DNA of 64,000 nucleotides from an uncultured Planctomycetales bacterium (GCA_964571825.1 CAZNDQ010000001.1:5540-69539), one strand, 5' to 3'; shown: positions 16,505 through 62,701, counted from the first letter of the stretch. The notes: generated by a model not told the origin, from the sequence alone. Numbers and translations are program-made.

Positions 16505-16511
16505 ACGCCGC

Positions 16512-16528: not shown

Positions 16529-16529
16529 A

Positions 16530-17486: not shown

Positions 17487-17490
17487 GCGC

Positions 17491-17507
17491 GCCGCATAGC
17501 ACGACAC
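17491..17507 (-). promoter_or_regulatory. class II 17-mer GTGTCGTGCTATGCGGC
   Basis: 17/17 match. ATG at 17486 lies 6 nt after TATGCG, with no SD. Confidence 0.6.
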
Positions 17508-17508
17508 A

Positions 17509-18810
17509 CTAGCCCACCAGCTCCACACCATCCGCAGCGAGCCGCGCGATCAGCTCCGCCACCTCGTCCATCCCACCGTCGCCAAGCGCACCGGGTTTAC
17601 CCTCGGGCCACATGATGTACCCGGGCACACGTGGCGCACCGCTATCAGGCGGCTCGTCCGCGGCGACAGGCGGCGCAACAGCGCGGTCGTGACACCACGG
17701 CGGGAGCGACACGTAGCCCAGCAGCGCTGGGTCGCTCGCCGGTCGCTCCGTGATGCGCCACGACGTGCCCTCGTTGGCCCCGATGGTCCGCTCGCCCGAC
17801 GTGTCGGCATCGATGACGCGGCACCCGTGACGCTGCCACGCCTCGGTGCCGCGCTTGCTGATGCGCCAGTCGCCTGGGCGCGGGATGTACCCGTGCGCGC
17901 GTGTACGCCACAGACCGAGGCGCTGCGCGTCCTGCTGCATCTCCAGCCCGCTAACACGGTACGCGTGCGGCAACGTCTCGCCCGGCAGCAACGCCATACG
18001 CCCCGCGAAGCACCCGCCAGCAACGCACCAGTCACCCGACGTGAGGCCGAGCTTCGTCTCGCGACCTCCGATGACGCGCGTGGCCGGCGCGAAGTACTCC
18101 GCGATGCGCGGTCCAGTGTTGTGGCCGCGCGTCTCGAGGTTCCCGCGTGCCAGCTCAGCGTACGACGCTTCGATGCACCGCTCCGCGTAGCTGCGCGCCG
18201 GGTCCTGCCATGGGTCTGTGGGCGGCATGTCGGTCGCGTCGTCAGCGGGTCGCATCAGCACCAGCGTCATGCTGTAATCCACATGATTCTCACCGTGCGA
18301 CGTGTCGGTGCTGCGCTGGACGATCTGTGCCGTCGTCTCGTTGGACTCGGCCGGATGCGTAGGGAGACCCCAGTCGACGCCACGCGGAACGTGCCACCCG
18401 TACAGGTAGCGCACCGCGAGCCCCGCAGGCGTGGCGCACCAGTGCTTGCCCACGTTGCCGACGACACCCGGAGCGGCGACGCCGCGATCGGTGAGCGCCG
18501 CTGCGATGTCGGCGTCGATGGCAGCGCTGTGCTTGGCGCCGTCATCGTTGGCTCGCGCCGCCGGTTTGCCTGATGACGCAGCAAGCCACAGCTGTTGTGT
18601 GTGCGGCCGGTTCTTCAGCCACGCCGATTCCCACCGCGCATCAAGCACGTTCGGCACCGGCAGCAGCGCGCCTAGCCTGTGCGCCCACTCCTCAGCGTCG
18701 GCATACGACACGTTGATGCGCTTACCGTCGATGCGCAGGGCATCGCGTGACACGTCCCAGCGCGAGCCGTTGCGCAGCGTGATGGTCGCCCAGTCGTGTT
18801 GCGCGGTCAC
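17509..18810 (-). CDS. putative cell-wall hydrolase (NlpC/P60- or CHAP-like central domain)
   Basis: GHNTGPRIAEYF...WCVAGGCF...PRPGDW...HGCRV pattern. GTG at 18810 after GGAGGA, with a GTGA overlap. Confidence 0.5.
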   Translation of the reverse strand: MTAQHDWATITLRNGSRWDVSRDALRIDGKRINVSYADAEEWAHRLGALLPVPNVLDARWESAWLKNRPHTQQLWLAASSGKPAARANDDGAKHSAAIDADIAAALTDRGVAAPGVVGNVGKHWCATPAGLAVRYLYGWHVPRGVDWGLPTHPAESNETTAQIVQRSTDTSHGENHVDYSMTLVLMRPADDATDMPPTDPWQDPARSYAERCIEASYAELARGNLETRGHNTGPRIAEYFAPATRVIGGRETKLGLTSGDWCVAGGCFAGRMALLPGETLPHAYRVSGLEMQQDAQRLGLWRTRAHGYIPRPGDWRISKRGTEAWQRHGCRVIDADTSGERTIGANEGTSWRITERPASDPALLGYVSLPPWCHDRAVAPPVAADEPPDSGAPRVPGYIMWPEGKPGALGDGGMDEVAELIARLAADGVELVG

Positions 18811-25627: not shown

Positions 25628-27142
25628 TTACAAGGTGGCGCGGAACGAGAGGCGCTTGAGGGAGAGGATGCGCGGCGAAAGCGCCGTGGTCGCCGGAACG
25701 GACGGCGTGGTCTTCGTCGTCTTGGTTCCCTCTGAGAACCGTCCTGCGAACGAGACGTCGCTGACCTCTGCGCGGTCGCTGATCCCCTTGAGTTGCAGCG
25801 ACGTCAGCGCGTACGGTCGTTCGATGTCGGGACCCGGCTTGCGCCGCGCGTAGAACAGAATGTCCGTGTTGCTGCTCTTCTCTCCGCACCCAAGCAGCTT
25901 GGTGGAAGCGAGGAACGCCGCGGCGTACTCGTCCAGGTACTCAGCGTCAGGACTTACGTAGAGACCGGACTCAAGGAAGCTGTCGGCCGCCGATCCGAAC
26001 AGGTCCAGAACGCACGTGTACGCCCCAGACGATCCGCCGACAGAGACGATGCTGAAGTGCTTCATCGTCTCCTCGGTATAGTCCCACACCGCGATGCGGT
26101 TTCCAGCCAGCGGCGGATCTGCGCTGGTGCTGTTGACCGTGATCTGGATGAGCCCGCTTGACGTGTCCGTCACGGCGCTGATCTCACCGAACACGTTCGG
26201 GCCGCTCTCGTTGTCAGATGGCCACGGAACGGCATCCAGCCAGCCGCCGCCTGCGCCGCCTGCGCTCTTCGGCAGCGCGAGACCGAGCCCGATGATGGCG
26301 TCGATCTCCTCCTCGGTGACGCTCGTCACGTTGAGCGACACGTTGCCCGGCATCTCAGCGGCAATGGCCGATGCCACCTGGTCCTGCACCGTGGTGTTGA
26401 GCGACAGATCGTCGCCGCCTCCCATGATCGCAACGTCGTAGCTCGACGGTCCGCGTGCTGTTGGGTACACGGCCGCGAACGCTACGCTTGCGTTGGCGCC
26501 CTCGGCCCACTCCTGCACCTGCGACCAGTTTCCGCCGACACCGGGAAAGCCGAGGCGTCGCAGCAGGCGCGCGCGAAGGTCCTCGTCGTCGTCAGCGTCA
26601 GCGGCACCGTCAATGCCGCCTGGTGCAACGGTTGCCTTGGTGCCGAGGTACGTGATGGACGAACTGTCCCACGTGATGATCTCGCCCTCGTCAAGGTTCG
26701 CCGAGTCGCCGGTGTCGATCGACTCAAGCTTGACGGCGCCGCCATTCGCAACCCCGACGTTGATCGCGGTGGTCTGGTATTTTTTGCCGCTGGCCGACGT
26801 GCCTTTGAACGATGCCGGCACGGTGAGCGACGTGGCCGGCGAGAGGACAACGATGGTGACGAAGCCGCTGGACTTGGTGGCGGGCCGCTTCGTGACACCG
26901 AAGATCCCGGCCCACTCCTGCAGGTCGTCGCCGGTCGCCGTCAGCGGGTTGATCCGCTTGTTGATGAGCCGGCCGTTCTGGGTCGCGACCGCGAGGCGCT
27001 TGGCGACTGCGAGCGTGCGGTGCCACAGCTCACTGTCCTTCGCGACGTTGGCCGTGACGCCGATCGTCGCGTAGCCGTAGCGCAGATCACTGAGCAGCTG
27101 TGAGTGCAGCTCGGCTACGGTGGGGTAGACAGGATCAGCCAT
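25628..27142 (-). CDS. baseplate J / Mu gp47-like protein
   Basis: 504 aa. The N-terminal region resembles the baseplate J family. Gene order fits. Confidence 0.7.
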   Translation of the reverse strand: MADPVYPTVAELHSQLLSDLRYGYATIGVTANVAKDSELWHRTLAVAKRLAVATQNGRLINKRINPLTATGDDLQEWAGIFGVTKRPATKSSGFVTIVVLSPATSLTVPASFKGTSASGKKYQTTAINVGVANGGAVKLESIDTGDSANLDEGEIITWDSSSITYLGTKATVAPGGIDGAADADDDEDLRARLLRRLGFPGVGGNWSQVQEWAEGANASVAFAAVYPTARGPSSYDVAIMGGGDDLSLNTTVQDQVASAIAAEMPGNVSLNVTSVTEEEIDAIIGLGLALPKSAGGAGGGWLDAVPWPSDNESGPNVFGEISAVTDTSSGLIQITVNSTSADPPLAGNRIAVWDYTEETMKHFSIVSVGGSSGAYTCVLDLFGSAADSFLESGLYVSPDAEYLDEYAAAFLASTKLLGCGEKSSNTDILFYARRKPGPDIERPYALTSLQLKGISDRAEVSDVSFAGRFSEGTKTTKTTPSVPATTALSPRILSLKRLSFRATL

Positions 27143-27563: not shown

Positions 27564-27869
27564 TCAATCGAGCGGACAAGGTATTGACGGCAGCGATGGG
27601 AGCTGCGGGAATGGCGGGAGCCCAGGAATCGTCGGCAGCGCAGGGAACGGGATCGCGGGCAGTCCAGGCAGCGACGGCAACGCTGGGAGTGAAGGCAGCT
27701 GCGGAAATGGCGGCAGTCCCGGAATCGATGGCAGCGCAGGCAGCGCGATCGTTGGGATGCCCGGGAGCGCCGGCAGCGGCGGAAGTGAAGGCAACTGCGG
27801 GAATGGCGGCAGTCCCGGAATCGACGGCAGTACCGGGAACGGGATCGGCGGAAAGGCGCAGAGGGTCAC
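27564..27869 (-). CDS. proline-rich repeat protein (xPx triplets, 32-aa period)
   Basis: GTG start after a GAGGTG SD. Stop is 3 nt before the next start. The opposite strand is also open (see findings). Confidence 0.4.
   Translation of the reverse strand: MTLCAFPPIPFPVLPSIPGLPPFPQLPSLPPLPALPGIPTIALPALPSIPGLPPFPQLPSLPALPSLPGLPAIPFPALPTIPGLPPFPQLPSLPSIPCPLD
27601..27851. repeat. 96-nt tandem repeat, about 2.6 copies
   Basis: Copies at 27601..27696, 27697..27792 and 27793..27851. Confidence 0.85.
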
Positions 27870-32229: not shown

Positions 32230-34410
32230 TTAGCCAGGGAGGTTCGACGCGACAGCGGCGCCCTTGATCGCCCCAGCTGCTTCCTTCAGCGCACCAGCGG
32301 CGTCGCGCAGTTCCTTTCCGCCCAGCAGCGCGTCCTTCATTTCGTTGCGGACGCCCTGGTCGGTGGTGTTCTGCATCTGCGTGATCTGGTCGCGCAGCTG
32401 TTGGATGATCGCCAGCTGTTCGTCGCTGTGCCGGATGTCCGGCCCGACGTTCGCCATTGGATCGGCGATGATACTCTCGGCGATCCCTTTCGCGCGGTTC
32501 TCGCGGTGCGTATCGCTTGCAAAGTCAAACGTGGCGCGGTCCGCCGAGAGGTAGCGCTTCACAAACTCTTCGGCGCTCACCGTCTCGTTGGCGCGGTCGC
32601 TCATCGACTGCCACTGCGTTTCAGCGCTGCGTTTGATGTTGTGCTGGCGCTCGATCTCGCTGTTCAGCGAGTTGAGCTGCGTCATCTCAACGTCGCTTAG
32701 GGTTCCTCCGCTGCGTACCTTGGCGAACAGCGACTCACGCGTCACCGAAGCCTTCGCAATAGCTGCATCGGCATCGCGGATGTGCTCCTCGGGAGACCTG
32801 TCGCCGACGATGCCAAACTCCTTGAGCTTGTCCACCGCGAGCTGTCCAGCCTCGGCAAGCGCGTGCATGGTCGTAACCAGCGGCGAGAACACGCCCGCAT
32901 CGGCGAGCGACGACACTGCACCGAGCAGCGCGGCAAACGCTGGCGTGACCTCTTGCCCGACCTGCGCTTTCAGCGACTCCCACACCGAGGTCAACGCCGC
33001 GCTGCTCTGCTGCTGTGCGCTCGCAAGGTCTCGCTGCACCTCGGCGTAGGCGCCGCTCGTCTCAGTGGCGCGCGCGATGCGCCGCCGCAGTGCGTCGACT
33101 CCGTCCGCTCCCTTCGCGGTCGCCTCGGCGTACTCCATGATCAGCGGACGCAGCGCGCGGATGCCTTCCTCGCCGAAGATCTTTTGCAGGCCAACCTTCT
33201 TCTTCTCCATGTCGGTTCCGCCAACCTTGGCGATCGACTCCACGAGGATGTCGGTGATGTTGCGCGCGTTGCCCTGCTTGTCGAAGACGTTGACGCCTGC
33301 CGTCTTGAGCTTCGTGCTCTGGGCCGTCAGCTGACGGAACGTCGCCTCAAGCGCAGACGCGGCCTGCTCTGGTGAGCCGGTCGCGGTGCGCGCGATCTGC
33401 GTCAGGCCGCCGAGCGTCGCCACGGCACCGGCGCCCTTGCCGATGCCAAACGAACCCGCCGCCGCTGCCAACTTGGGGAACTGCTTCGCAGCGTCCTCAA
33501 GCTCGAAGCTGCCCTGTTTGCCCTGGACCGTGAGGATCGCCATCGCATCCGCCATCTCCTCAACCGTCTTGACGTCGAACTTCTCAAACAGGTCTGCCAT
33601 CGCGCCCGCAAGCGCCGAGGTGTCGGTACCCGTCGCGACCGAGAACTCCGCCATGGTGCGCTGCAGATCGATCCCGAGCTGCATGTTGCCCGTCTTGCCG
33701 ACGAACTCATCTACACCAGCGGCAATGTCGGCCGCCTTTGCGCCACGCACGCCGACCGCAGTAGCCTCGAATCCGCGGCGGAGCCTGTTTGCGTCGAAGC
33801 CCTCGCCGCCCTTGATGGCGAGGCGCTTGCTGAAGTCGTCCAGCGCCAGCGATTCACGCAGCGCCCTGCCGCCAACGAGCGCACCGGCGCCCATGACAGC
33901 GCCGGCACCAGTGATCGCGGCGCCGCCAATTGCTGCGATGGCGCCACGAATGCGTGAGCCACGCGCCTCGCGTCGTTGCTCGGTCCTGCGTGCAAGATCG
34001 CGCTCGTGACGCTCTTGCAGCTTGGTGCGGCGATCGAGGTGGCTGCGCACGTCGCGCTCACGCTGCCGGTCCAGCCCTTGCTGCACACGCGCGGCGCGGC
34101 GTGCTTCACGGATCTGCGCGTCAGCCGCCTTCTTTGCGGCGCGCTCCTGATCGCGCGCCACCTTGAGGCCGAGCTTCTCCGTCTCGCTCATCGGCCGCTT
34201 CGCCGATGACCACGCCTCCGACACCTGTTTCGCTGCGCCACGGGACGCGCCAGCGGCGCCGCGGCCTGCCTTGGCCGCCGCCTTCGGGAACGATCCGAGC
34301 GCCTTGTTGGCCTGCGCCTCGAGGTCGCCGTACGCGTCGCCGATCGAGCGGATGACGCTCTTCAGCTTGTCGTGACCGTCCGAGACCCAGACGAAGCGCG
34401 TATCGGGCAT
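32230..34410 (-). CDS. tail tape measure protein
   Basis: 726 aa, Ala/Gly-rich helical, with a TP901-type core-like segment. Position fits. Confidence 0.85.
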   Translation of the reverse strand: MPDTRFVWVSDGHDKLKSVIRSIGDAYGDLEAQANKALGSFPKAAAKAGRGAAGASRGAAKQVSEAWSSAKRPMSETEKLGLKVARDQERAAKKAADAQIREARRAARVQQGLDRQRERDVRSHLDRRTKLQERHERDLARRTEQRREARGSRIRGAIAAIGGAAITGAGAVMGAGALVGGRALRESLALDDFSKRLAIKGGEGFDANRLRRGFEATAVGVRGAKAADIAAGVDEFVGKTGNMQLGIDLQRTMAEFSVATGTDTSALAGAMADLFEKFDVKTVEEMADAMAILTVQGKQGSFELEDAAKQFPKLAAAAGSFGIGKGAGAVATLGGLTQIARTATGSPEQAASALEATFRQLTAQSTKLKTAGVNVFDKQGNARNITDILVESIAKVGGTDMEKKKVGLQKIFGEEGIRALRPLIMEYAEATAKGADGVDALRRRIARATETSGAYAEVQRDLASAQQQSSAALTSVWESLKAQVGQEVTPAFAALLGAVSSLADAGVFSPLVTTMHALAEAGQLAVDKLKEFGIVGDRSPEEHIRDADAAIAKASVTRESLFAKVRSGGTLSDVEMTQLNSLNSEIERQHNIKRSAETQWQSMSDRANETVSAEEFVKRYLSADRATFDFASDTHRENRAKGIAESIIADPMANVGPDIRHSDEQLAIIQQLRDQITQMQNTTDQGVRNEMKDALLGGKELRDAAGALKEAAGAIKGAAVASNLPG

Positions 34411-35595: not shown

Positions 35596-35647
35596 TGCTT
35601 CCCTCCTCCGGTCTGTCGCGGTATTCGTGGCCCCGCGCGGCCGAAGG

Positions 35648-35720
35648 TCTGAGCGGCACGATTCGAACGTGCGACCCCGAGCACCCAAGGCTCGTGCGCT
35701 ACCAACTGCGCTACGCTCAG
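35648..35720 (-). tRNA. tRNA-Pro (anticodon UGG)
   Basis: Full cloverleaf read by hand: CTGAGCG-TA-GCGC-AGTTGGTA-GCGC-A-CGAGC-CTTGGGT-GCTCG-GGGTC-GCACG-TTCGAAT-CGTGC-CGCTCAG-A. Has C1:G72, G37 and A73. Confidence 0.9.
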
Positions 35721-36829: not shown

Positions 36830-38407
36830 CTAGTACGCCTGACCGGACTCCGCGATCACGGTGCCGGTCTTGATGAGGTGCTCGATCGTCTTCTTGTCCT
36901 GGAAGATGCTGAACGAGCCGCCGCCGTTGTAGACGCAGCTGAACTTCTCCAGCATCTCCTGCTTCGCACTCGGCTTCATGATCGGACCCGGATAAAGACC
37001 GTACGGCGAGTTGCTGCACATCTCATTGAGATGGTTCTCGTAGATCGCCACGATGTCGGCCGGCGTGGTCGTCAGCGCGGGCGGCAGCTGCCCTTCCGGC
37101 GGATCGTCGTCCGCGTTCGGCTGGAGCTTCGCAGTCATCGAACCGAAGAACAGCTCCCAGTTGCTGTGCAGACAGCGCGGGATGTGGCCCTCGCGGACCT
37201 TGTAGTCGTTGCTTCCGGCACTGTTCAGCGACTGGTTCGTGATGAAGCGCTTGATGCGCATCGCGCCCCTCTCGTACGTGATCGGGATAATCCCGTTGTC
37301 GAGCGCGGTTCGGATCTCCGTGTCCGTCGGCACGTCGGCCTCGAGACGCGGGCGCGGGATGTTGACCGCCAGTCCGTTGATGTTCGCCGCGGGGTAGGCG
37401 ATCTGGTGCTTGCGCGCCTGAGCCGCCATGTACGCGGCGATCCAGCCGCCGGGCCAGTCGTTGTTTTCCGCCCACGTGCAGTGCGCGGTCCACAGGTTCA
37501 TCTGGGCATCGGTCGACACCGTCACGGCTTCCGTGTTGGTGCCGGTGAGGCCGACAAACAGCAGCGTGTCGACGCCGTTGATCGGAAGCGCCAGGGTGCG
37601 CAGCGCTTCGGTCAACTCGCCAAGTCCGTTGTCGGTCGCAGTTGGGGCGCTCGTCGGGCTCTTCGGCGTGACGACGTAGTAGAAGAGATTCTCCTTGGCG
37701 CGCGCCGTCAGCGCAGCGATCGCCGCGGTGTGGTCGTCCTCGGTCGCACCGGCTACAGCGTCGGCGGTCTGCTTCTGCGCGACCTGCGTGTTGGTCGGCC
37801 CGATGAGCCGCACGCGCAAGCCGAGCGTCGCCGACGCGCCCTGGATGAGCGCGGTGCCGCGCGGACCGATGTTCGCCGCGGTCACCACCACGTCGAGCCC
37901 GGTCGTTGCCGCGGTCGGCGCAGCTGCGGTGAACGGACAGCGCCCGCCCTCGGCTGCGTTGATGGCCGACTGCACGCGCGCCGCGACGGTCGCCTCGCTC
38001 TCGTTGGCCTTGCGCGGCACTTCGATGGTTCCGTCTGCCCAGTCGATCGCGATGGTGCCCGGCTGATCCGACGTTCCCTGAATGTTGAGGACCGTGGCCG
38101 CAGCGGTGCCGCCCGACTCGGTGGGACAGAGCACGTAGATCGTGCCACTGGGATCCACTTTCCGAATCTGCCGGTACATCCACGCGGCTTCGCTGCGCGG
38201 ACCGAGGCGCGACTCAGCGTCGGCGTCGTCGGCGATCGGCGTGAGACTGATCGCGTCGACCGTCTCGGTACCGCCGCTCGTCTTGTTGCCGATGACGAGG
38301 TACGGCAAGGAGCTGACAGCGCCGGGTCCTCCGCCGCTGCCGGGACGGTACTCTCTCCGGTGTGCTGGAGACGGATCGGTGGGGTCTACCCCAAGCAGGC
38401 CAGCCAT
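36830..38407 (-). CDS. contractile tail sheath protein
   Basis: 525 aa, upstream of the tube gene in a Mu/P2-like order. Confidence 0.7.
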   Translation of the reverse strand: MAGLLGVDPTDPSPAHRREYRPGSGGGPGAVSSLPYLVIGNKTSGGTETVDAISLTPIADDADAESRLGPRSEAAWMYRQIRKVDPSGTIYVLCPTESGGTAAATVLNIQGTSDQPGTIAIDWADGTIEVPRKANESEATVAARVQSAINAAEGGRCPFTAAAPTAATTGLDVVVTAANIGPRGTALIQGASATLGLRVRLIGPTNTQVAQKQTADAVAGATEDDHTAAIAALTARAKENLFYYVVTPKSPTSAPTATDNGLGELTEALRTLALPINGVDTLLFVGLTGTNTEAVTVSTDAQMNLWTAHCTWAENNDWPGGWIAAYMAAQARKHQIAYPAANINGLAVNIPRPRLEADVPTDTEIRTALDNGIIPITYERGAMRIKRFITNQSLNSAGSNDYKVREGHIPRCLHSNWELFFGSMTAKLQPNADDDPPEGQLPPALTTTPADIVAIYENHLNEMCSNSPYGLYPGPIMKPSAKQEMLEKFSCVYNGGGSFSIFQDKKTIEHLIKTGTVIAESGQAY

Positions 38408-54780: not shown

Positions 54781-56121
54781 CTACATGTCGGCGATGACGG
54801 TCTTGGTTGCGATGGGTGCGTTGGCGGCGCGTAACGCCATGGCCAGCGCCCAGAATGAATCAGCGTGTCCCTCGCTGGTCCGCGGCGCCTCATACGAGAC
54901 GTTGCCGGCCTGCGTGACGACGCGCTTGATGGAGCACACGTCGCGGAACAGCTGCTCGTTGTCGCGAGGCATTCGGATCATGTCCGACGCGAACAGCGAG
55001 TGCGCGCGCGTCGCCATGTCCTCTTTGCTCTGCAGGGTGAAGCTCACGGGCTCGACGCTCATCTCGCCGTACGCCGCTTGCGCCTCGGAGGCAGGGAACG
55101 CACCCAACCCGGTCGCGTCGATGCACATGCGCTCCACACCGAACGGCGGCGCGAAGGCGCGCGCCACGAGCATCTGAATGTCGCCGAGCTGCGTGCGCTT
55201 GCAGGTGGCAGTGTGGACCACGTGGTAGCGCCCGTCGTGGTTGCGTCGCACGATGGCCAGCTCTGTCCGATCAACCTCTTTGCCGATGTCGAGCCCAGCC
55301 CAGCACGGTCCGTGCGGGATGTACGTCGAATCGATGCGGGCCGCTTCGACCAGGTGCGTCGGGATGTACTGCTGCTCGTTGTCTAGGAATGAGCAGCAGA
55401 ACAGCTGGTTGAAGACGCGCTCGTCGCCGCGCGCCAGCCTCCAGCAGTCGGCGATGTCGACTGGCATGCCATCGGCGATGGCGTCGTCCAGCGTTACGGC
55501 GTGGCGCGAGTACCCTTCGTTCTGCTTCGGGTCACTCCACAGCTCGTAGAACAGACCCGCCGCGCCGTTGGGCGTCGACAACCCGCGGATGCGGTAGCCG
55601 TGCAGCGCGGTGCCCGCCGCGCCGTCCCACACCTCGTAGGGCCGGTCGTAGTACGCCAGCTCGTCCAGGATGACGTTGCCGCTAAACGAGCGGCCCGCCG
55701 ACGTGTTGGGCAGCGACAGAATGCGCCCGCCATCGCCGCGGCCGTTGCCGCGCATGATGAGCTTGGTCGCACTGTTGTGCAGCGGGACGGCCCATCGCGA
55801 GCCAAGCTCGGCGAGCGCCGATGCGTGCAGCTTCGACTTGGCGAGGACCTCGTCGGCCTCGCGCTGCCCCAGCGAGATGACGGTCGTCGTCTCGCCGAAC
55901 AGCCCCCACAGCACCGCGGCACCCGCGATGGTGTGGCTGATCCCGATCTGTCGCGACTTGAGCGCGAGCATGAACCGCGACCAATCGAGTATCCACTCGA
56001 GCTGGAAGCGGTAGAACGTGTGCAGCCACGCGTCTACCGCGGCGAACTCACGCGACGGTAGCGCCTCGCGCAATCCGTCGTAGGTCCGCTGGGCGTCAGC
56101 GCTGAGAGTCGGCAGCGCCAT
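54781..56121 (-). CDS. terL: terminase large subunit
   Basis: Walker A-like KSRQIGIS and Walker B-like VILDELA, followed by a nuclease-half pattern. Position fits. Confidence 0.8.
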   Translation of the reverse strand: MALPTLSADAQRTYDGLREALPSREFAAVDAWLHTFYRFQLEWILDWSRFMLALKSRQIGISHTIAGAAVLWGLFGETTTVISLGQREADEVLAKSKLHASALAELGSRWAVPLHNSATKLIMRGNGRGDGGRILSLPNTSAGRSFSGNVILDELAYYDRPYEVWDGAAGTALHGYRIRGLSTPNGAAGLFYELWSDPKQNEGYSRHAVTLDDAIADGMPVDIADCWRLARGDERVFNQLFCCSFLDNEQQYIPTHLVEAARIDSTYIPHGPCWAGLDIGKEVDRTELAIVRRNHDGRYHVVHTATCKRTQLGDIQMLVARAFAPPFGVERMCIDATGLGAFPASEAQAAYGEMSVEPVSFTLQSKEDMATRAHSLFASDMIRMPRDNEQLFRDVCSIKRVVTQAGNVSYEAPRTSEGHADSFWALAMALRAANAPIATKTVIADM

Positions 56122-56672: not shown

Positions 56673-57044
56673 CTACGCGAGCATCACCGCAACGCCGCGG
56701 GCCGACGGCTCGCCAGCTATCTCGTCCCACACCGTCGCGACGCCCTTCGCCATCGTCGCCTGGCCGCGTGTCAGCGCCATACGCGGCGACATCATCAGGT
56801 AGACGACGTCGCACGGCTTGCCGTCGTGGTTGCGCGCCAGCCACTTGCGCAGCGCCCGTGCCGACTGGACGCCCTCCACGACCCACGGGCCCGGCTCGTC
56901 GAAGTAGCGTGACGCAGCCTCGCTTGCCTCGCTCCACGCGTGCGTTGCGATTAGGTCGTCCAGGTGCCGAACCGTGTCGACACCGAGCCGCGTGGACAGC
57001 GTCGTCTTGCCGGTCCGTGGCACGCCCGCGATTACGATGCGCAT
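56673..57044 (-). CDS. P-loop NTPase (small kinase/ATPase-like)
   Basis: MRIVIAGVPRTGKTTL is a Walker A motif at the extreme N-terminus. Confidence 0.55.
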   Translation of the reverse strand: MRIVIAGVPRTGKTTLSTRLGVDTVRHLDDLIATHAWSEASEAASRYFDEPGPWVVEGVQSARALRKWLARNHDGKPCDVVYLMMSPRMALTRGQATMAKGVATVWDEIAGEPSARGVAVMLA

Positions 57045-57843
57045 CGCGTTGTCCCAGTACTCCACGTCACGTACCGCGCGAGCCGCTGCGCCCTGCGCTG
57101 TAGCTCGGCGTACGTCACCTCTTGCGACGCGTCCTGCTCGGCCGGCGCCATGTTGCGCCAGATGCTCAGCATGTGGGCCCACTTCTCGTCGCCTCGCTCG
57201 CCCCGTTGGTGCGGTCCGCGAGCTGGTAGACGATGACTCTGTGGTAGAGGGCGATCATGAAAAGCCCAGCGTGGCACAGGCGCTCGCGTCTGCGCGACCC
57301 TGGGCGGGTTAGTCGTTGTGGTTTGCTGAGTTGTCGCAGTACTTGAACCGCTGCGCCGGTGTTGGTGGACCAGCTGGGTAACGCTCCCAGTAACATCGCC
57401 GCTTGGTCGTAGTATTCGTAGCGCTACGCCGCTTCGTGGACCAGAGCGGAATCGGACCGCTTCGGCTCAGCTTGCAAGGCTGGCCACCAGCCCACTGGAC
57501 CGGCCCAGGCAGCCCGCATCGCTACGGGCCAGGCCACATCGGCACGAGGCGCTCGCGTCTCATGCCGCCCCTCGCCGACGTGTGTCGGCGCGTGGCTTCG
57601 GGGTTGCGTCACTCGGGGCTTGTGAGGCCCCTCGGGGTGTGATCCCACGCGACGCAGTGGACCGTGTCGGTACTGCCCCGACCGTCCGCGGCGGTCCGCG
57701 TTGCGGTGTTCCGCCACGTCGAAGCTGTTTCGGCCCGTGAGGCGCTGGACCCTGCGCCGACGTCGTGCCGCAGCGTTGGCGTCGTGGCGAGCAGGATCCG
57801 AAGCCCTCATATATATAGGGCAAAACATGTCCGCTGGTGTCCC

Positions 57844-58958: not shown

Positions 58959-59569
58959 ACGTCCACCGTCCACCTGATAGGCTCCGGACTGATGCCCGTG
59001 TCGGCGATGAACGCCGCGAGCCACGCTCTGGCGCCATCCTCGCCGAGCGACGCATGGCGGTTGTTGCGGACCCACTGCGACGCGTGCAAGGCCGCAAGGC
59101 GTCGCTCCAGCGCGTGCGCGGCGAGACCCGGTGGCGCGCATCTGTGCGCTACCAGTCGCGCCACGACCCGGCGCAGCTTCGACTCGTACAGCGCCTCGTC
59201 CGCGTCCTGAACGCCCTCCGGTGAGCTGCCAAGCGGCTCGCCTACTGCGAGGAACTCCAGGTCGCTGCAGATCTCAGCGAGCACGTCGACGCGCCCCTCC
59301 TCGTCCTCGAAGAATCCCTCCGCATGGTAGTAGCGGTCTGTCTTCGGGATCTGGCGGACCAACGTGTCGTCCATTGGCTTGGCCGCGCAATGCCACCCGG
59401 CCGGGCACTCCGCGTGCACGACACCAACGTCGGTGTACGCGGCGGATTGGCCAGGCAGGATGTGGCGCCCACACTTGCGGCACGGGAGACGCGGCTCGCG
59501 CTCGCCGAGCAGCTTCGTGCCAGCGATGAACGGGCGCGTCGTCCTCGGCCTCGTTACGATTGCAGTCAT
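58955..59569 (-). CDS. hypothetical protein
   Basis: ATG at 59569 lies 6 nt after the TATGCG of a class II motif. Confidence 0.45.
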   Translation of the reverse strand: MTAIVTRPRTTRPFIAGTKLLGEREPRLPCRKCGRHILPGQSAAYTDVGVVHAECPAGWHCAAKPMDDTLVRQIPKTDRYYHAEGFFEDEEGRVDVLAEICSDLEFLAVGEPLGSSPEGVQDADEALYESKLRRVVARLVAHRCAPPGLAAHALERRLAALHASQWVRNNRHASLGEDGARAWLAAFIADTGISPEPIRWTVDV

Positions 59570-59573
59570 GCAT

Positions 59574-59590
59574 GCCGCATAGCACGACAC
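59574..59590 (-). promoter_or_regulatory. class II 17-mer GTGTCGTGCTATGCGGC
   Basis: 17/17 match with leaderless spacing. Confidence 0.6.
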
Positions 59591-59617
59591 ACCCGGTCAC
59601 CACGACGCGGGCACTCC

Positions 59618-59653
59618 AAAAGAAAAAGCCCGACCGCCTCGCGACGATCGGGC
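59618..59653 (-). terminator. Rho-independent terminator closing the Y-RNA cluster
   Basis: GCCCGATCG-TCGCGAGG-CGGTCGGGC followed by TTTTTCTTTT. Confidence 0.7.
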
Positions 59654-59672
59654 CGAACTACCATGGTGTCAG

Positions 59673-59796
59673 GGTCAACGGCGGGATTCGAACCCGCGAC
59701 CTCCCTCGTGCAAAGAGATAACCGTTCCGCTGCGGCCCGAATCGGGCAAAGAGGTGCGAGACGGAATAGGCGCTCTACCAGCTGAGCTACGTTGAC
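59673..59796 (-). ncRNA. tRNA-like RNA with a Y-RNA-type hairpin in place of the anticodon arm (module 3)
   Basis: Perfect acceptor (GTCAACG/CGTTGAC), D arm (GCTC-AGCTGGTA-GAGC) and T arm (GCGGG-TTCGAAT-CCCGC). A 68-nt insert carries CTTTGCCCG-ATT-CGGGCCGCAG..GGTTATC. Confidence 0.65.
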
Positions 59797-59843
59797 CGGT
59801 GTTCCCGGCTTGAATTGCACCAGCGTTACCGGCGTGAAAGGCG

Positions 59844-59894
59844 ATAACCCTCATGCTTCGGCCCGCGGACGGGCAAAGTGTTGCCGAGGGGTAT
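59844..59894 (-). ncRNA. Y-RNA-like module 2 (Ro-helix motif closed by a tetraloop)
   Basis: ATACCCCTC..CTTT-GCCCG-TCCG-CGGGC-C-GAAG..GAGGGTTAT folds as one long hairpin with a bulged C. Confidence 0.5.
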
Positions 59895-59929
59895 TGAACG
59901 GTGTCCTGCTCACTAGACGACGGGAACAG

Positions 59930-59992
59930 ATGTCGGGCAAGTTGGTGCGGCAGGGGAACATACCAGATAACCCTACCACTTCGGCCCGACAT
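59930..59992 (-). ncRNA. Y-RNA-like module 1 (compact, canonical topology)
   Basis: Termini pair as ATGTCGGGC/GCCCGACAT, with bulged C/G, AAGT/ACTT, GGTAGGG/CCCTGCC and loop TTATCTGGTATGTTC. The 5' end coincides with the predicted TSS. Confidence 0.65.
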
Positions 59993-59997
59993 GGAAA

Positions 59998-60015
59998 CTC
60001 TATAGCACACCACAC
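59998..60015 (-). promoter_or_regulatory. class II-related promoter of the Y-RNA cluster (GTGTGGTGTGCTATAGAG)
   Basis: TGC-TATAGA extended -10. 6 nt to the A that starts the Y-RNA terminal helix. Confidence 0.55.
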
Positions 60016-60035
60016 GCGTCGCAGTATTGGCAGCC

Positions 60036-61787
60036 CTACGCGGCTGACGAATCTTCTGTGAGGCCACACGCGAACTCAGACAGGAGCTGCGGCGTGGCCG
60101 TGTCGAACCCGGCGACGTCGATCATGCCGGCGTCGCTCGGGTCTGCGATCGTGAACTCGGTCGCTTCCATTGCGACCACCGCGAGCTTAGCGTCGATGCC
60201 CATCTGCTGGCGGTACTGCTTCAGCGCGACGTGGGCATGCAAGTCGCCCTGCCACGTCTCGTTGTCAGTGTAGATGTGAAACACATCGACCGGCACCTTG
60301 TGCTCCATGGCCCACATCATCGGCAGGGCGCAGTCCGTGCCACCCATCGGGATCTGAGCGATCCGCTGCATCGCGTCGCCGATCCTCATGCGCGGCGAAA
60401 TGTCGACCGTGCTGATACCCGACCGCAGCGAGCTGTTGTGACCGTAGGCGCGGTACCCGGCGCTCGCCCACTGCCCGGTGCAACGCGGATGCGACCAACC
60501 CGCGTCAGCGCTGGAGAACGCCACCACGCCGCAGTTCGGCTCCACGGCCAGCGCAACCATCGCCATCGCGGTCGCAGCCTCGCGACACGAGACGAAGTCG
60601 ATCCCGGCGACCGGCGCGCCCATCGATCCTGACACGTCCAGCGCCAGCAGGTGCCGCTTGCCGGTCTTCGGCACGGCACCGAACGCCGCGTAGAACGCCG
60701 CGTCCAACGCGTCGGTGACCTGCGACACGGGCCCCCACGTCAGCGAGCCCTTCACGCCACAGCCGCGCGCGTACACCTTCTGCGCCGCCATCAGCGCGAT
60801 CGGGTGCATCCGGGCGCGGCGCAGTCGCTCGACATCGCCGAGCCGCTCCGCAACGGTGCGCGACGCATCGGACAGCGGCGCGATCAGCCCGACGCTCGTC
60901 ATCTTGCCGAGGTTGCGGATCATAGCCGTCATGGGCATGCCGACGAGTAGCGCCTCCCACACCTCACGGTGCGCAAGCAGCTCAGTCGGCACCATCTCGC
61001 GCGCGAGTCCGCGCTCCACAATGAGCTTCGCCGCTGCTTTGGGATCGGTCGCCAGCGTCTTGCACTCCTCGTACGCGGCGATCAGGTCGGGCAGGTGCCG
61101 CTTCAGTGCGCCCTGTTCCTCCACCGCGTCGCGGCGCTTCACGATGCGCTTGCCCATGCCGTCGCTGCCAGCCACGGCCCACCGAAGCGCGGCCTCGGCC
61201 GGTAGCTCCAGGTTGTCCGCGAGATGGCACAGGCGCAGCACGTCGCGATGCGACCAGCCGTTGCGCTGTTGGTACTTCACGAGCTGCAGCGCCAGCTGGT
61301 CGCCCGTCTTCGCCGCGTACCACTTGCCGACACCACGCCGCAGGCCGCGACCCCACCCGCGCAGCTCGTTGACGATCGCGACAAACTCGAACAGGTGCGT
61401 CCCGATGCGGCACACGTCGGGTAAGGCATCCAGCGCAGCACGGCGCGCCTCGGGCGACTCCGACGCTGCGCAGATGGCCAACGCGAAGATCGCCGGGCTG
61501 TTCTTTGGCGCGTTGCCGGCTTGACTCACCTCGGCGATCGTCCGCACGGTGCGCAGTGGATCGGCGACTACGCAGCGACGGACGGCGGCGGCGTTGTCCA
61601 GCGTGAGGGCGCGCTCCTTGACGTAGTAGGTGCCGCCCTCGCTGCCGAGGATCAGGAAGCGCTGCAACCGCGCCCAGTCGTCCACGACGAAGCTGTAGCC
61701 GCCCGCGTTGTTCTCCTGCTGCAACGGGGACACCGCCTCGGACTGCGGCGTGTGGATCGGGTTGAGTGCCGTGGTGTAGATGCTCAT
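60036..61787 (-). CDS. rsr: Ro60 / Rsr orthologue (TROVE plus vWA domains)
   Basis: NNAGGYSFVVDDWARLQRFLILGSEGGTYY (TROVE N-terminus) and C-terminal MIDAS LALDVSGSM. ATG at 61787 after the motif. The longer ORF upstream is not supported. Confidence 0.88.
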   Translation of the reverse strand: MSIYTTALNPIHTPQSEAVSPLQQENNAGGYSFVVDDWARLQRFLILGSEGGTYYVKERALTLDNAAAVRRCVVADPLRTVRTIAEVSQAGNAPKNSPAIFALAICAASESPEARRAALDALPDVCRIGTHLFEFVAIVNELRGWGRGLRRGVGKWYAAKTGDQLALQLVKYQQRNGWSHRDVLRLCHLADNLELPAEAALRWAVAGSDGMGKRIVKRRDAVEEQGALKRHLPDLIAAYEECKTLATDPKAAAKLIVERGLAREMVPTELLAHREVWEALLVGMPMTAMIRNLGKMTSVGLIAPLSDASRTVAERLGDVERLRRARMHPIALMAAQKVYARGCGVKGSLTWGPVSQVTDALDAAFYAAFGAVPKTGKRHLLALDVSGSMGAPVAGIDFVSCREAATAMAMVALAVEPNCGVVAFSSADAGWSHPRCTGQWASAGYRAYGHNSSLRSGISTVDISPRMRIGDAMQRIAQIPMGGTDCALPMMWAMEHKVPVDVFHIYTDNETWQGDLHAHVALKQYRQQMGIDAKLAVVAMEATEFTIADPSDAGMIDVAGFDTATPQLLSEFACGLTEDSSAA

Positions 61788-61794
61788 GACTTGG

Positions 61795-61811
61795 TCCTCA
61801 TAGCACGACAC
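61795..61811 (-). promoter_or_regulatory. class II variant GTGTCGTGCTATGAGGA (13/17)
   Basis: First 13 nt identical. The 3' end reads GAGGA (SD-like). ATG at 61787. Confidence 0.55.
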
Positions 61812-61812
61812 A

Positions 61813-62115
61813 TCACGGATACTCGCTGGCCAACTCGGACGCGCACTGGCGACAGACCACGCGCTGCGGTGGAGTTGGCTGCGGCAGGATGGCCCGCAGC
61901 GCAGCGGCGACGCCGGCTGCAAATGCTTCGCACTCCTCGTTGGTCGGACGAGCACTGAGTGCCTCGCTCGCGATGCGTCGCTTGACGATGTCGACCACCA
62001 CACACCACTCGCTTTCATCTGTGAAGTCCAGGCGGGATCGCTTTCCTTCAAGTCGTTTCCACCAGCCGCGAAGCAGATCGTGATCGCCAATCGGTTGCCA
62101 GTTAACCTTGCTCAT
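61813..62115 (-). CDS. hypothetical protein
   Basis: ATG at 62115 (MSKVNWQPIG), overlapping the upstream stop by 14 nt. Confidence 0.4.
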   Translation of the reverse strand: MSKVNWQPIGDHDLLRGWWKRLEGKRSRLDFTDESEWCVVVDIVKRRIASEALSARPTNEECEAFAAGVAAALRAILPQPTPPQRVVCRQCASELASEYP

Positions 62116-62701
62116 TGCTCGCAGCCTCCAGTTGTTCCAACCAATCCTTGCCGAGGTGCCGCCGCGCAGCCTTGGCAAACCCATCCGCAGTCGCGCGCAC
62201 CGTCACCGTCTTCGGTCGAAAGCCAGCCTCTACCATCGCAGCATGCGGCGACATCTCCCCCGCTACGACACGCTCGTGCAGCGTCGGCGCGTCCTTGCGC
62301 AGGCGGCGGAGGGCCTTCGCCGCAGTATTGCCCTCTGGTCTTCCAACTGAATCGGTAACATTGTTACCAGTTTCACGCCCACCATCAGCGGGCCTTCCCG
62401 GCTCACGCCTCACCGCCTCATCGAACAACGACAGCGCTTCGGGGTCGCCGCGGAGCATGTTGCGGACGATGTCGATCGTTGCGCCCAGCCCCTCCAGCGG
62501 CTTGGTCGCTACGAACTCCTCAAACCGGTCGAAGCGCACGGTCTCGCCAGTCTGGATGACGCGCTCGCGCCACAATTCGCGACGAAGAATCTTCTTCAGA
62601 AGCCCCGGCACAAGTGCAAGCGTCGACGAGACCGACATCGCCTGTCGCAGCGACACGACCAGCTCGTCACCAAGACGCTTCTCGTCAAATGGCGACGGCA
62701 T
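62102..62701 (-). CDS. hypothetical DNA-binding-like protein
   Basis: 199 aa. The C-terminal AAKALRRLRKDAPTLHERVVAGEMSPHAAMVEAGFR segment is common in phage replication-module proteins. Confidence 0.45.
   Translation of the reverse strand: MPSPFDEKRLGDELVVSLRQAMSVSSTLALVPGLLKKILRRELWRERVIQTGETVRFDRFEEFVATKPLEGLGATIDIVRNMLRGDPEALSLFDEAVRREPGRPADGGRETGNNVTDSVGRPEGNTAAKALRRLRKDAPTLHERVVAGEMSPHAAMVEAGFRPKTVTVRATADGFAKAARRHLGKDWLEQLEAASNEQG

What the first reader, a model, noticed from the sequence alone, without database searches (positions are those of the whole stretch)
59618..61811. Phage-borne Ro60/Rsr gene followed by a promoter-to-terminator cluster of three Y-RNA-like modules
**The protein.** CDS 60036..61787 begins ...NNAGGYSFVVDDWARLQRFLILGSEGGTYY and ends with a vWA MIDAS motif (DVSGSM). 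That is the TROVE plus vWA architecture of Ro60/Rsr.

**The RNA motifs.** Twenty nucleotides past its stop, on the same strand, a class II-like promoter (59998..60015) opens about 375 nt of non-coding sequence that ends at a strong terminator (59618..59653). This stretch holds three copies of CGGGCCG(A/C)AG-N6-8-GGTTATC. It also holds three copies of the complementary (A/C)(C/T)TTGCCCG.

**Module 1 (59930..59992).** It folds with its termini paired:
- GTCGGGC/GCCCGAC
- a bulged C(G)
- AAGT/ACTT
- GGTAGGG/CCCTGCC

This is the conserved bulged-C terminal helix that Ro binds in Y RNAs. From memory, human Y1 starts GGCUGGUCCGAAGGUAGUGAGUUAUCUC. Module 1 reads GUCGGGCCGAAGUGGUAGGGUUAUCUG.

**Context.** Rsr/Y-RNA pairs are known in bacteria and a few phages. 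A tandem triple-module locus with its own promoter in a temperate high-GC phage is unusual. It may serve RNA repair or counter-defence (inference).
Basis: partly seen in the sequence, partly recalled or inferred. Interest (0 to 1): 0.85.

Follow-up and report, generated by a model that had tools for sequence, protein, structure and literature searches.

The report
Phage Ro60 gene with tRNA-shaped Y RNAs
A phage carries a Ro60 (Rsr) gene followed by three Ro-binding "Y" RNAs; two of them are built as whole tRNA-like molecules with the Ro-binding hairpin inserted in the anticodon stem, a layout I did not find described for the known bacterial Y RNA (YrlA).

Summary
CDS 60036..61787(-) is a Ro60/Rsr protein (TROVE plus Ro60-vWA). 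The 375 nt downstream hold the window's only three GGTTATC motifs, three GGGCCG(A/C)AG strands and three complementary strands, and end at a strong terminator.

Module 1 (59930..59992) is a small Y RNA that resembles animal Y RNAs; it scores above Rfam's threshold for the nematode Y-RNA homologue. Modules 2 (59800..59927) and 3 (59673..59796) are not simple repeats of it. Each is a tRNA-shaped RNA with a 7-bp open acceptor stem and D and T arms. The Ro-binding helix sits as a closed hairpin, 3' strand first, inside the 5' strand of the anticodon stem. A 7-nt anticodon-like loop is kept.

This is the known tRNA-mimic YrlA with its parts in un-permuted tRNA order. About 29 distinct relatives lie in rsr loci from metagenomes and uncultured viral contigs, with strong covariation. 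The nine cultured phages I examined showed no tRNA-order unit; canonical YrlA was identified in five. The likely route is one transcript cut by RNase P into three Rsr-bound RNAs.

Phage Rsr/Y-RNA pairs and multi-Y clusters are already known. The topology is a new variant and bears on the dimeric-tRNA origin model of YrlA. Expression, processing and binding are untested.

The parts
60036..61787 (-). rsr: Ro60/Rsr protein, 583 aa (TROVE ring plus Ro60-type vWA domain with the MIDAS motif DVSGSM)
   Evidence: Pfam TROVE 5e-48 and vWA_Ro60 1.6e-60. PDB 9nen, 1yvp and 2nvo at E 1e-110 to 1e-116. 355 phage relatives at 48% identity or less.
61800..61811 (-). Copy of the window-wide GTGTCGTGCTAT motif, 12 nt upstream of the rsr ATG. 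Candidate promoter.
   Evidence: 12 copies against 0.6 expected. Each lies 9-12 nt upstream of an ATG. Promoter function is inferred.
60002..60013 (-). One-mismatch copy (GTGGTGTGCTAT) of the same motif. It lies 9 nt upstream of the first paired base of module 1. Candidate promoter of the Y-RNA cluster.
   Evidence: The ATG-equivalent position is the first base of the module-1 terminal stem AUGUCGGGC/GCCCGACAU. Inferred.
59930..59992 (-). Module 1: small Y RNA that resembles animal Y RNAs. Termini are paired; it carries GGGCCGAAG, an upper stem, GGGUUAUC, and CACCAACUUGCCC on the 3' strand.
   Evidence: Rfam RF01656 at 48.7 bits, gathering score 38. MFE -28.9 kcal/mol with paired termini. 15 similar RNAs in rsr loci have a covarying terminal stem.
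59800..59927 (-). Module 2: tRNA-topology Y RNA. Acceptor stem GUUCCCG/CGGGAAC, discriminator A. The D arm resembles tRNA-Glu/Gln. The T arm is degenerate (T loop UGCAAUU).
   Evidence: R1 covariance model 98.9 bits. Cognate acceptor duplex -10.4 kcal/mol against 0 for the non-cognate pairing. With the insert deleted, it matches tRNA-Glu/Gln genes.
59848..59890 (-). Ro-binding hairpin of module 2: 3' strand, UCCG loop, then 5' strand GGGCCGAAG. It is inserted between tRNA positions 29 and 30 and followed by UUAUC.
59832..59842 (-). Anticodon-like hairpin of module 2: GC, loop CUUUCAC, GC (U33, A37).
59673..59796 (-). Module 3: tRNA-topology Y RNA. Acceptor stem GUCAACG/CGUUGAC, discriminator C. 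D arm, variable loop AGGUC and T arm (UUCGAAU) are canonical.
   Evidence: Rfam tRNA 48.2 bits with a 64-nt insert. R1 131 bits, but module 3 is a seed of that model. The MFE fold gives a cloverleaf plus a long arm. With the insert deleted, the best hit is tRNA-Ala at 84%, E 3e-10.
59722..59764 (-). Ro-binding hairpin of module 3: 3' strand, AUU loop, then 5' strand GGGCCGCAG. It is inserted between tRNA positions 28 and 29 and followed by UUAU.
59705..59717 (-). Anticodon-like hairpin of module 3: CUC, loop UUUGCAC, GAG (U33, A37).
59618..59654 (-). Intrinsic terminator: 12-bp G+C-rich stem followed by UUUUUCUUUU.

Best explanation
This is a phage-borne Ro60 (Rsr) cassette with its own Y RNAs.

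**Transcription (inferred).** One transcript of about 375 nt starts near 59992-59994. It comes from the repeated phage motif at 60002-60013, or from read-through out of rsr. It ends at the terminator at 59618-59654.

**The three RNAs (shown by sequence and comparison).**
- Module 1 is a 63-nt Y RNA with paired termini.
- Modules 2 and 3 are tRNA-shaped RNAs of 128 and 124 nt. Each has an open 7-bp acceptor stem, D and T arms and an anticodon-like 7-nt loop.
- In modules 2 and 3 the Ro60-binding helix is a closed hairpin inserted in the 5' strand of the anticodon stem.
- These are the same building blocks as the tRNA-mimic YrlA: Ro helix, YUAY motif, 'V' hairpin, T arm, acceptor, D arm. Here they are in un-permuted tRNA order.

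**Processing (inferred).** The spacers are only 2 and 3 nt. Host RNase P cutting at the 5' ends of modules 2 and 3 would release all three RNAs. 3' trimming and CCA addition would follow. This has been shown experimentally for M. smegmatis YrlA, not for this locus.

**Function (inferred).** Each RNA binds the phage Rsr through its GGGCCG(A/C)AG helix. The tRNA-like part (modules 2 and 3) or the loop (module 1) acts as the stabilising or effector-binding end. By analogy this gives Ro60-Y RNA-PNPase type complexes that redirect RNA decay or repair during infection.
For: **Protein.** Ro60 identity is established.

**Motifs.** The Ro-helix motifs occur only here in the 64-kb window.

**Module 1.** Above Rfam's gathering score for the Y-RNA homologue sbRNA. 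It belongs to a covarying mini-Y family found in rsr loci.

**Module 3.** An Rfam tRNA hit with a 64-nt insert.

**Topology in the window.**
- Cognate upper stems are the most stable partners: -15.3, -11.8 and -9.2 kcal/mol, against -8.8 or weaker for non-cognate pairs.
- Acceptor strands pair only within a unit: -10.4 and -8.1 kcal/mol, against 0.
- The Ro hairpins are closed by 3- and 4-nt loops.

**Family support.**
- A covariance model built from 5 sequences found about 29 distinct relatives in rsr loci. 28 of 29 have perfect 7-bp acceptor stems.
- RNAalifold on a MAFFT alignment independently predicts the acceptor stem (7 of 7 pairs compensatory), D stem, T stem and the lower Ro hairpin.
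- Pair counts: 88.8% of cells paired, 29 of 35 pairs with changes on both sides, 0 of 500 shuffles as high; slid controls give 37-46%.
- Split anticodon stem: 19 of 29 members have 5 of 5 pairs with a 7-nt loop. Controls with other loop sizes give 0-2. Among the 20 members tabulated, U33 and R37 are invariant and pairs 28-42, 30-40 and 31-39 covary.

**Locus design recurs.** L020 and L083 have rsr, then a mini-Y, then a tRNA-shaped Y RNA. L174 alternates mini-Y and tRNA-shaped units.

**Published precedent.** YrlA is a tRNA mimic. M. smegmatis YrlA, which has a 7-bp acceptor stem, is cut by RNase P and gains CCA, and YrlA and YrlB come from one precursor (PMC4201824). Thermus phage phiLo Ro60 binds phage Y-like RNAs and host PNPase (PMC12135203).
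Against: - There are no expression, processing or binding data.
- No Rsr more than about 55% identical was found in any collection searched, so conservation of this exact cluster is untested.
- Module 3 departs from the published motif GNCGAAN0-1G (GCCGCAG), and many family members do too.
- Module 2 has a mismatched T stem, a non-canonical T loop and no GG in its D loop.
- The comparative structures are about 10-12 kcal/mol above the MFE, and the MFE does not give the small hairpin.
- The pair counts come from a model-fitted alignment.
- The promoter is inferred only from motif over-representation; no sigma-70 consensus was found.
- CCA is encoded in only 3 of 29 members.
- No PNPase, RtcB or other partner gene is seen nearby.
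Confidence: 0.8

Rival explanations
1. Canonical YrlA reading. The 5' strand of module 2 pairs with the 3' strand that lies upstream of module 3. Between them sit the T arm of unit 2, a short closed acceptor-like hairpin (CCGG-GAACA-CCGG) and the D arm of unit 3. That would give one ordinary, permuted YrlA flanked by two orphan half-units.
For: The Rfam YrlA model aligns to 59740..59851. Tandem canonical YrlAs exist in Gordonia phage Cashline and in L036, and my tRNA-topology model cross-hits them.
Against: - The YrlA hit is 16.6 bits against a gathering score of 69 (E 1.3), with several non-canonical pairs.
- The upper stems prefer their cognate partners, and the two acceptor strands at the junction do not pair (0 kcal/mol).
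- This reading leaves half-units without partners, whereas the tRNA reading pairs every strand.
- 28 of 29 relatives have perfect within-unit 7-bp acceptor stems that covary.
- Chen et al. flagged this kind of cross-unit hit as a false positive.
Confidence: 0.05
2. Modules 2 and 3 are real decoding tRNAs (Glu-UUC and Ala-UGC). The Ro-binding hairpin is an intron-like insert that is removed, or tolerated, so the locus supplies tRNAs as well as Y RNAs.
For: - The anticodon-like stem-loops are intact, with U33 and R37.
- With the insert deleted, the sequences match tRNA-Ala and tRNA-Glu/Gln genes.
- The acceptor stems are open and 7 bp long.
- Wang et al. raised the idea that some YrlA RNAs might be processed into forms closer to canonical tRNAs.
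Against: - The insert is in the stem, not the anticodon loop. From general knowledge, no bacterial enzyme is known to excise such an insert.
- Across the family, tRNA body type does not track the 'anticodon'.
- Members with Ser or Leu 'anticodons' lack the long variable arm of those tRNAs.
- Module 3 lacks the G3:U70 pair that AlaRS recognises. This is read from the sequence; the identity rule is general knowledge.
- Module 2 has a degenerate T arm.
- ARAGORN calls neither module as a tRNA.
- No RNA ligase gene is seen in the window, though only some of the ORFs were scanned.
Confidence: 0.07
3. The region is decayed tRNA genes plus chance repeats, or it codes for protein, and has no Ro-related function.
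For: Mechanical ORFs of 84-153 aa overlap the region. The window has high GC.
Against: - The overlapping ORFs have no Pfam match.
- The motifs are unique in 64 kb.
- Two Rfam hits reach their gathering scores.
- The same architecture recurs next to rsr in about 20 independent loci with compensatory changes.
Confidence: 0.02

Closest known systems
YrlA (Y RNA-like A; Rfam RF02553; Chen et al. 2014, Wang et al. 2018)
   Same: It is encoded beside rsr on the same strand. It has a Ro-binding 5'-strand motif, then YUAY, then a small 'V' hairpin, and tRNA-like T and D arms with an acceptor-like stem. M. smegmatis YrlA has a 7-bp acceptor stem, is cut by RNase P and gains CCA.
   Different: In YrlA the RNA termini sit in the Ro helix and the acceptor-like stem is closed by a loop, so it is a circularly permuted tRNA. 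In modules 2 and 3 the termini sit in the acceptor stem and the Ro helix is closed by a 3-4-nt loop. The Rfam YrlA model scores only 16.6 bits, and only across the unit junction. Five of the cultured phages I examined (Cashline, Cali, Sparky, Trina, Big4) have identifiable canonical YrlA.
Animal Y RNAs and nematode stem-bulge RNAs (Rfam RF01656)
   Same: Module 1 keeps both strands of the conserved helix (GGGCCGAAG... and ...CACCAACUUGCCC), the GGGUUAUC motif and paired termini. It passes the RF01656 gathering score.
   Different: It comes from a phage. It is much shorter (63 nt, small loop). It has no oligo-U/La-type 3' end. It is co-transcribed with tRNA-like RNAs.
Thermus phage phiLo Ro60 with Yrl1 and Yrl2 (PMC12135203)
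   Same: A phage-encoded Ro60 with phage-encoded Y-like RNAs next to the gene. In vitro it forms complexes with host PNPase.
   Different: The phiLo RNAs lie upstream of the gene and are described as stem-bulge-stem RNAs with paired termini. No tRNA-topology unit is reported there.
D. radiodurans Yrn1
   Same: A Ro-bound Y RNA with some tRNA-like features, including a T arm. Both strands of the Ro helix are retained.
   Different: In Yrn1 the Ro helix continues from the termini and the tRNA-like arms are arranged differently. The Rfam Deinococcus_Y_RNA model gives only 19.8 bits on module 1.
Circularly permuted tRNA-like genes (permuted tRNAs of algae and archaea; two-piece tmRNA)
   Same: The same RNA fold is encoded in two circular orders, with tRNA-processing enzymes defining the ends. 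Permuted tRNAs are discussed. Two-piece tmRNA is from general knowledge.
   Different: Here the canonical order is the newly seen form and the permuted order (YrlA) is the known one. No ligation step is implied.

Membership tests
Ro60/Rsr protein | TROVE (HEAT-repeat ring) domain | tested here: met
   Pfam PF05731, 5e-48.
Ro60/Rsr protein | C-terminal Ro60-type vWA domain with a MIDAS motif | tested here: met
   PF25045, 1.6e-60. DVSGSM is in the translation.
Ro60/Rsr protein | Full-length similarity to structurally solved Ro60/Rsr | tested here: met
   9nen, 1yvp and 2nvo at E 3.5e-116 to 7e-110.
Y RNA (Ro60-bound ncRNA) | Encoded close to the Ro60 gene on the same strand | tested here: met
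   The cluster starts about 40 nt after the rsr stop codon on the - strand.
Y RNA (Ro60-bound ncRNA) | Ro-binding motif GNCGAAN0-1G on the 5' strand of a bulged helix | tested here: inconclusive
   Modules 1 and 2 carry GCCGAAG. Module 3 carries GCCGCAG, one mismatch. All three have a complementary 3' strand.
Y RNA (Ro60-bound ncRNA) | Physical association with Ro60/Rsr | not testable with these tools
   Needs immunoprecipitation or a gel-shift assay.
YrlA (RF02553) | Rfam gathering score (69 bits) | tested here: not met
   16.6 bits, E 1.3, spanning the module 2/module 3 junction.
YrlA (RF02553) | tRNA-like T and D arms, YUAY motif and V hairpin | tested here: met
   Module 3 is canonical; module 2 is degenerate.
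YrlA (RF02553) | Termini in the Ro helix and an acceptor-like stem closed by a loop (permuted order T, acceptor stem, D) | tested here: not met
   The order is acceptor 5' strand, D, Ro hairpin, V, T, acceptor 3' strand. The Ro helix is closed by UCCG or AUU loops. The acceptor stem is open and pairs only within a unit.
tRNA (RF00005) | Cloverleaf scoring above the gathering score | tested here: inconclusive
   Module 3 scores 48.2 bits (gathering score 29), but only with a 64-nt insert. Module 2 is not reported. ARAGORN calls neither.
tRNA (RF00005) | Continuous 5-bp anticodon stem | tested here: not met
   The stem is split 2+3 (module 3) or 3+2 (module 2) by an insert of 51 or 56 nt.
tRNA (RF00005) | Aminoacylation and decoding | not testable with these tools
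   Indirect evidence argues against it: body type does not track the 'anticodon', and module 3 has no G3:U70 pair.
Nematode sbRNA (RF01656) | Rfam gathering score (38 bits) | tested here: met
   Module 1 scores 48.7 bits. This reflects the shared Y-RNA helix, not nematode origin.
Intrinsic terminator | G+C-rich hairpin followed by a U run | tested here: met
   12-bp stem with 8 G-C pairs, then TTTTTCTTTT.
Sigma-70 promoter | -35 and -10 consensus hexamers | tested here: not met
   0 sites in 59000-62500. Only the over-represented 12-mer motif supports a promoter.

The most novel reading that the evidence does not exclude
Modules 2 and 3 and their roughly 29 relatives could be a separate functional class: tRNA/Y-RNA chimeras that carry CCA and can be charged. 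With a free acceptor end and an anticodon-like loop, they could take phage Ro60 to tRNA-handling machinery such as synthetases, EF-Tu, the ribosome or anticodon nucleases. They could also be the ancestral order from which permuted YrlA arose, by tandem duplication followed by loss of the outer halves. The tandem module 2-module 3 pair would then be the postulated 'dimeric tRNA' intermediate.
Probability: 0.15. Interest if true: 0.85.

Novelty: new variant of a known kind. Interest (0 to 1): 0.6.

Why it matters
Ro60 and Y RNAs are conserved from bacteria to humans, and Ro60 is a major autoantigen. What the tRNA-like half of bacterial Y RNAs does, and where it came from, are both open questions.

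Published work describes YrlA as a circularly permuted tRNA mimic and proposes that it arose from a dimeric tRNA transcript. This locus and its relatives show the same parts in un-permuted order, often in tandem. That supplies the missing configuration for a duplication-and-permutation route.

It also supplies natural Y RNAs with a free, RNase P-type acceptor end. Experiments on CCA addition, charging and tRNA-binding partners therefore become straightforward.

In practice these RNAs escape current annotation. ARAGORN does not call them, the Rfam YrlA model misses them, and the 2014 survey discarded hits that overlapped tandem tRNA genes. A dedicated covariance model would find them.

Tried and rejected
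**Searches for close relatives.**
- Megablast of 59500-62000 against 50,697 phage records found nothing.
- Protein-seeded scans of genome, viral and metagenome collections found no Rsr above about 55% identity. No orthologous cluster could be aligned base by base.

**Standard RNA tools.**
- Rfam YrlA and Deinococcus Y RNA models give only sub-threshold hits. Y_RNA (RF00019) gives no hit at E up to 10.
- ARAGORN calls neither tRNA-like unit.

**Tests of the decoding-tRNA idea.**
- Brute-force deletion of candidate inserts followed by ARAGORN was too permissive to be a test.
- A test of whether tRNA body type matches the 'anticodon' across the family was negative. I therefore dropped the idea that these RNAs mimic specific isoacceptors.

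**Context.**
- A search for conserved neighbour genes across 21 loci found only rsr.
- Pfam on 9 neighbouring ORFs gave nothing informative.

**Cultured phages.** Nine were examined. Canonical YrlA was identified in Cashline, Cali, Sparky, Trina and Big4. No tRNA-order unit was found in any of the nine.

**Left unfinished.** I aligned 8 canonical YrlAs (A6) but did not build a second model, because the complementarity test already separated the two topologies.

**Papers not held in the library.** Sim et al. 2020 (Annu Rev Microbiol), Sim & Wolin 2018, and Burroughs & Aravind 2016. An earlier description of the un-permuted form cannot be ruled out.
Full report
**1. The observation**

The - strand is the sense strand. 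The CDS runs from the ATG at 61787 to the TAG at 60036-60038 and encodes 583 aa. It matches Pfam TROVE (5e-48) and vWA_Ro60 (1.6e-60). It matches solved Ro60/Rsr structures 9nen, 1yvp and 2nvo at E about 1e-110 to 1e-116.

- GGTTATC occurs three times in the whole 64-kb window on both strands, all between 59717 and 59972.
- The composite 5'-strand motif occurs three times.
- The complementary 3'-strand motif occurs three times.

A 12-bp hairpin followed by a T run at 59654-59618 fits an intrinsic terminator.

**2. Context**

The window is a phage or prophage with myovirus-type structural genes.
- Large terminase at 54781-56121, tail sheath at 36830-38407, baseplate wedge at 25628-27142 and tape measure at 32230-34410.
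- A tyrosine integrase at 3015-4046.
- G+C is about 67% throughout.
- The terminase is only about 30% identical to any phage in the collection, and the Rsr region has no megablast match. The lineage is unsampled and the host is unknown.

Ro-like genes are common in cultured phages. 355 records match, mostly Mycobacterium and Streptomyces phages, at 48% identity or less. Phage Y RNAs are published (PMC4201824; PMC12135203).

**3. Module 1 (59930-59992)**

Module 1 folds with paired termini. It scores 48.7 bits on Rfam RF01656, the nematode Y-RNA homologue, whose gathering score is 38.

Fifteen RNAs of the same design from other rsr loci align with it. Their terminal stem covaries. Both strands of the Ro helix are kept. 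Chen et al. describe that as the animal/Deinococcus-like state.

**4. Modules 2 and 3 are tRNA-shaped**

Rfam's tRNA model matches 59673-59796 at 48.2 bits, with 64 nt inserted in the anticodon arm. Read along the RNA, the strands come in the order 5', 3' (module 1), then 3', 5' (module 2), then 3', 5' (module 3). In modules 2 and 3 the Ro helix is therefore a hairpin, closed by UCCG and AUU loops.

Each hairpin sits inside a unit with these parts:
- a perfect 7-bp acceptor stem (GUUCCCG/CGGGAAC in module 2, GUCAACG/CGUUGAC in module 3);
- a D arm;
- a 4-5-nt variable loop;
- a T arm.

Duplex energies support pairing within units.
- Cognate upper stems give -15.3, -11.8 and -9.2 kcal/mol, against -8.8 or weaker for non-cognate pairs.
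- Acceptor strands pair only within a unit: -10.4 and -8.1 kcal/mol, against 0.

The alternative is a canonical YrlA spanning the module 2/module 3 junction. It scores 16.6 bits against a gathering score of 69 and leaves half-units unpaired.

**5. Relatives**

Long 'tRNA' hits next to rsr turned up in other loci. I built a covariance model (R1) from five sequences. It found strong matches in protein-seeded loci from genomes, viral contigs and metagenomes. It also found matches in loci retrieved by a DNA pattern for the closed hairpin.

After removing duplicates, 29 members remain from the first two sets. 28 of them have perfect 7-bp acceptor stems.

RNAalifold on a MAFFT alignment, made without the model, predicts the acceptor stem, D stem, T stem and the lower Ro hairpin. 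All seven acceptor pairs show compensatory changes.

On the model-fitted alignment 88.8% of cells pair and 29 of 35 pairs change on both sides. No shuffle of 500 reaches that level, and slid controls give 37-46%.

About 20 of roughly 150 rsr loci carry at least one such unit.

Locus designs like the window's recur.
- L020 and L083: rsr, then a mini-Y, then a tRNA-shaped Y RNA.
- L043: three tRNA-shaped units in tandem.
- L174: rsr, mini-Y, tRNA-Y, mini-Y, tRNA-Y, mini-Y.

**6. The split anticodon arm**

The Ro hairpin is inserted in the 5' strand of the anticodon stem, between positions 28/29 or 29/30. After its YUAY motif comes a 2-3-bp stem with a 7-nt loop. Then come the two or three bases that pair back to positions 27-28 (27-29 in module 2).
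- 19 of 29 members have all five pairs. Controls with loops of 5, 6, 8 or 9 nt give 0-2.
- In the 20 members tabulated, U33 and R37 are invariant, positions 34-36 vary freely, and pairs 28-42, 30-40 and 31-39 covary.
- This small hairpin is the 'V' stem-loop of Chen et al.. In these un-permuted molecules it occupies the place of the distal anticodon arm.

With the insert removed, module 3 best matches a tRNA-Ala gene (84%, E 3e-10). Module 2 matches tRNA-Glu/Gln genes.

Across the family, however, tRNA body type does not follow the 'anticodon'. Members with Ser or Leu 'anticodons' lack long variable arms. I therefore read the loop as an anticodon-like U-turn loop, not as evidence of decoding.

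**7. Relation to known YrlA**

YrlA has the same parts in the order Ro 5' strand, YUAY, V, T, closed acceptor-like stem, D, Ro 3' strand. Wang et al. describe it as a circularly permuted tRNA and discuss a model in which it arose from a dimeric tRNA transcript.

I examined nine cultured phages. Canonical YrlA was identified in five of them, and none showed a tRNA-order unit.
- Cashline has two tandem units closed by GCGA and UUCG loops.
- Sparky has a 7-bp stem closed by UUCG.
- Cali, Trina and Big4 also have the canonical order.

The window's units are the un-permuted order. The module 2-module 3 tandem has a 3-nt spacer, which is the dimeric configuration that model needs.

Chen et al. discarded hits that overlapped tandem tRNA genes. 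None of the 36 held papers that mention YrlA describes this order.

**8. Likely mechanism**

Shown here: the protein identity, the three Ro-type helices, the tRNA topology and its conservation.

Inferred:
- Transcription from the motif at 60002-60013, or read-through from rsr. The motif is one of 12 copies of GTGTCGTGCTAT against 0.6 expected, each 9-12 nt upstream of an ATG. Here the equivalent position is the first base of module 1's stem.
- RNase P cuts at G59927 and G59796. With spacers of 2 and 3 nt these cuts release all three RNAs. CCA addition would follow, as shown for M. smegmatis YrlA.
- Rsr binds each Ro helix.
- An effector role by analogy with Ro60-Y RNA-PNPase complexes, including the phage phiLo case.

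No conserved partner gene accompanies rsr across the loci. The cassette therefore looks self-contained and reliant on host enzymes.

**9. Weak points**

- No expression or binding data exist.
- No close orthologue of this locus was found.
- Module 3 and many relatives depart from GNCGAA.
- Module 2 has a degenerate tRNA elbow (T loop and D loop).
- The comparative folds are 10-12 kcal/mol above the MFE.
- The promoter is inferred.

**10. Verdict**

A phage Rsr/Y-RNA cassette is a known kind, and multi-Y clusters are ordinary. The tRNA-order, acceptor-open form of the tRNA-mimic Y RNA is a new variant, as far as the accessible literature and Rfam show. It is supported by covariation in about 29 relatives.

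Noticed in passing
window 10067, 13726, 13809, 16517, 17496, 19408, 21322, 43837, 44715, 59579, 60002, 61800: The 12-mer GTGTCGTGCTAT occurs 12 times with up to 1 mismatch, against 0.6 expected. Each copy lies 9-12 nt upstream of an ATG. Most are followed by a palindrome (ATGCGGCGCGCAT) that contains the start codon. It may be a phage promoter/operator for transcripts with little or no leader.
   Followed up: partly
window 35646-35720 (-): An ordinary tRNA-Pro(UGG) gene lies among the tail genes. It is the only canonical tRNA in the window.
   Followed up: no
window 3015-4046 (+); 15197-16573 (-); 16530-17531 (-): A tyrosine integrase and two DNA methyltransferase ORFs. The second methyltransferase ORF holds a 48-bp tandem repeat of 2.8 copies at 16952-17086. 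Another repeat, 96 bp in 2.6 copies, lies at 27603-27847.
   Followed up: no
L162 2646-2854 (Rhodococcus phage Trina, NC_042040 84277-84485): A feature annotated as a pseudo 'tRNA-OTHER' lies just upstream of the Ro gene. It overlaps the 5' part of a canonical permuted YrlA at locus 2782-2914. A Band-7-like gene follows Ro, which recalls the published link between Band-7 proteins and tRNA-like RNAs.
   Followed up: partly
window 59808-59824 (module 2 T arm); L066 1817-1939; L121 4314-4440; L099 2021-2140; L084 1657-1783: A variant T loop (UGCAAU, or UGCGA followed by C or G then U) appears in these units. In module 2, L066 and L121 the D loop also lacks the usual GG. This suggests a covarying alternative tRNA elbow in a subclass.
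   Followed up: no
L174 9030-9560 (IMGVR_UViG_3300049021_000095): A five-RNA cluster lies directly after rsr: mini-Y, tRNA-shaped Y RNA, mini-Y, tRNA-shaped Y RNA, mini-Y. This is a more elaborate version of the window's design.
   Followed up: partly
21 rsr loci carrying tRNA-shaped Y RNAs (L004, L020, L040, L042, L043, L052 and others): All-against-all BLASTP of flanking ORFs finds no conserved neighbour of rsr, apart from shadow ORFs. The rsr plus Y-RNA unit seems to move as a self-contained cassette.
   Followed up: yes
window 56673-57182 (-): A small P-loop protein (GVPRTGKTT) gives only a weak, sub-threshold AAA_18 match. A kinase role, for example polynucleotide kinase, is possible but unsupported.
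   Followed up: no
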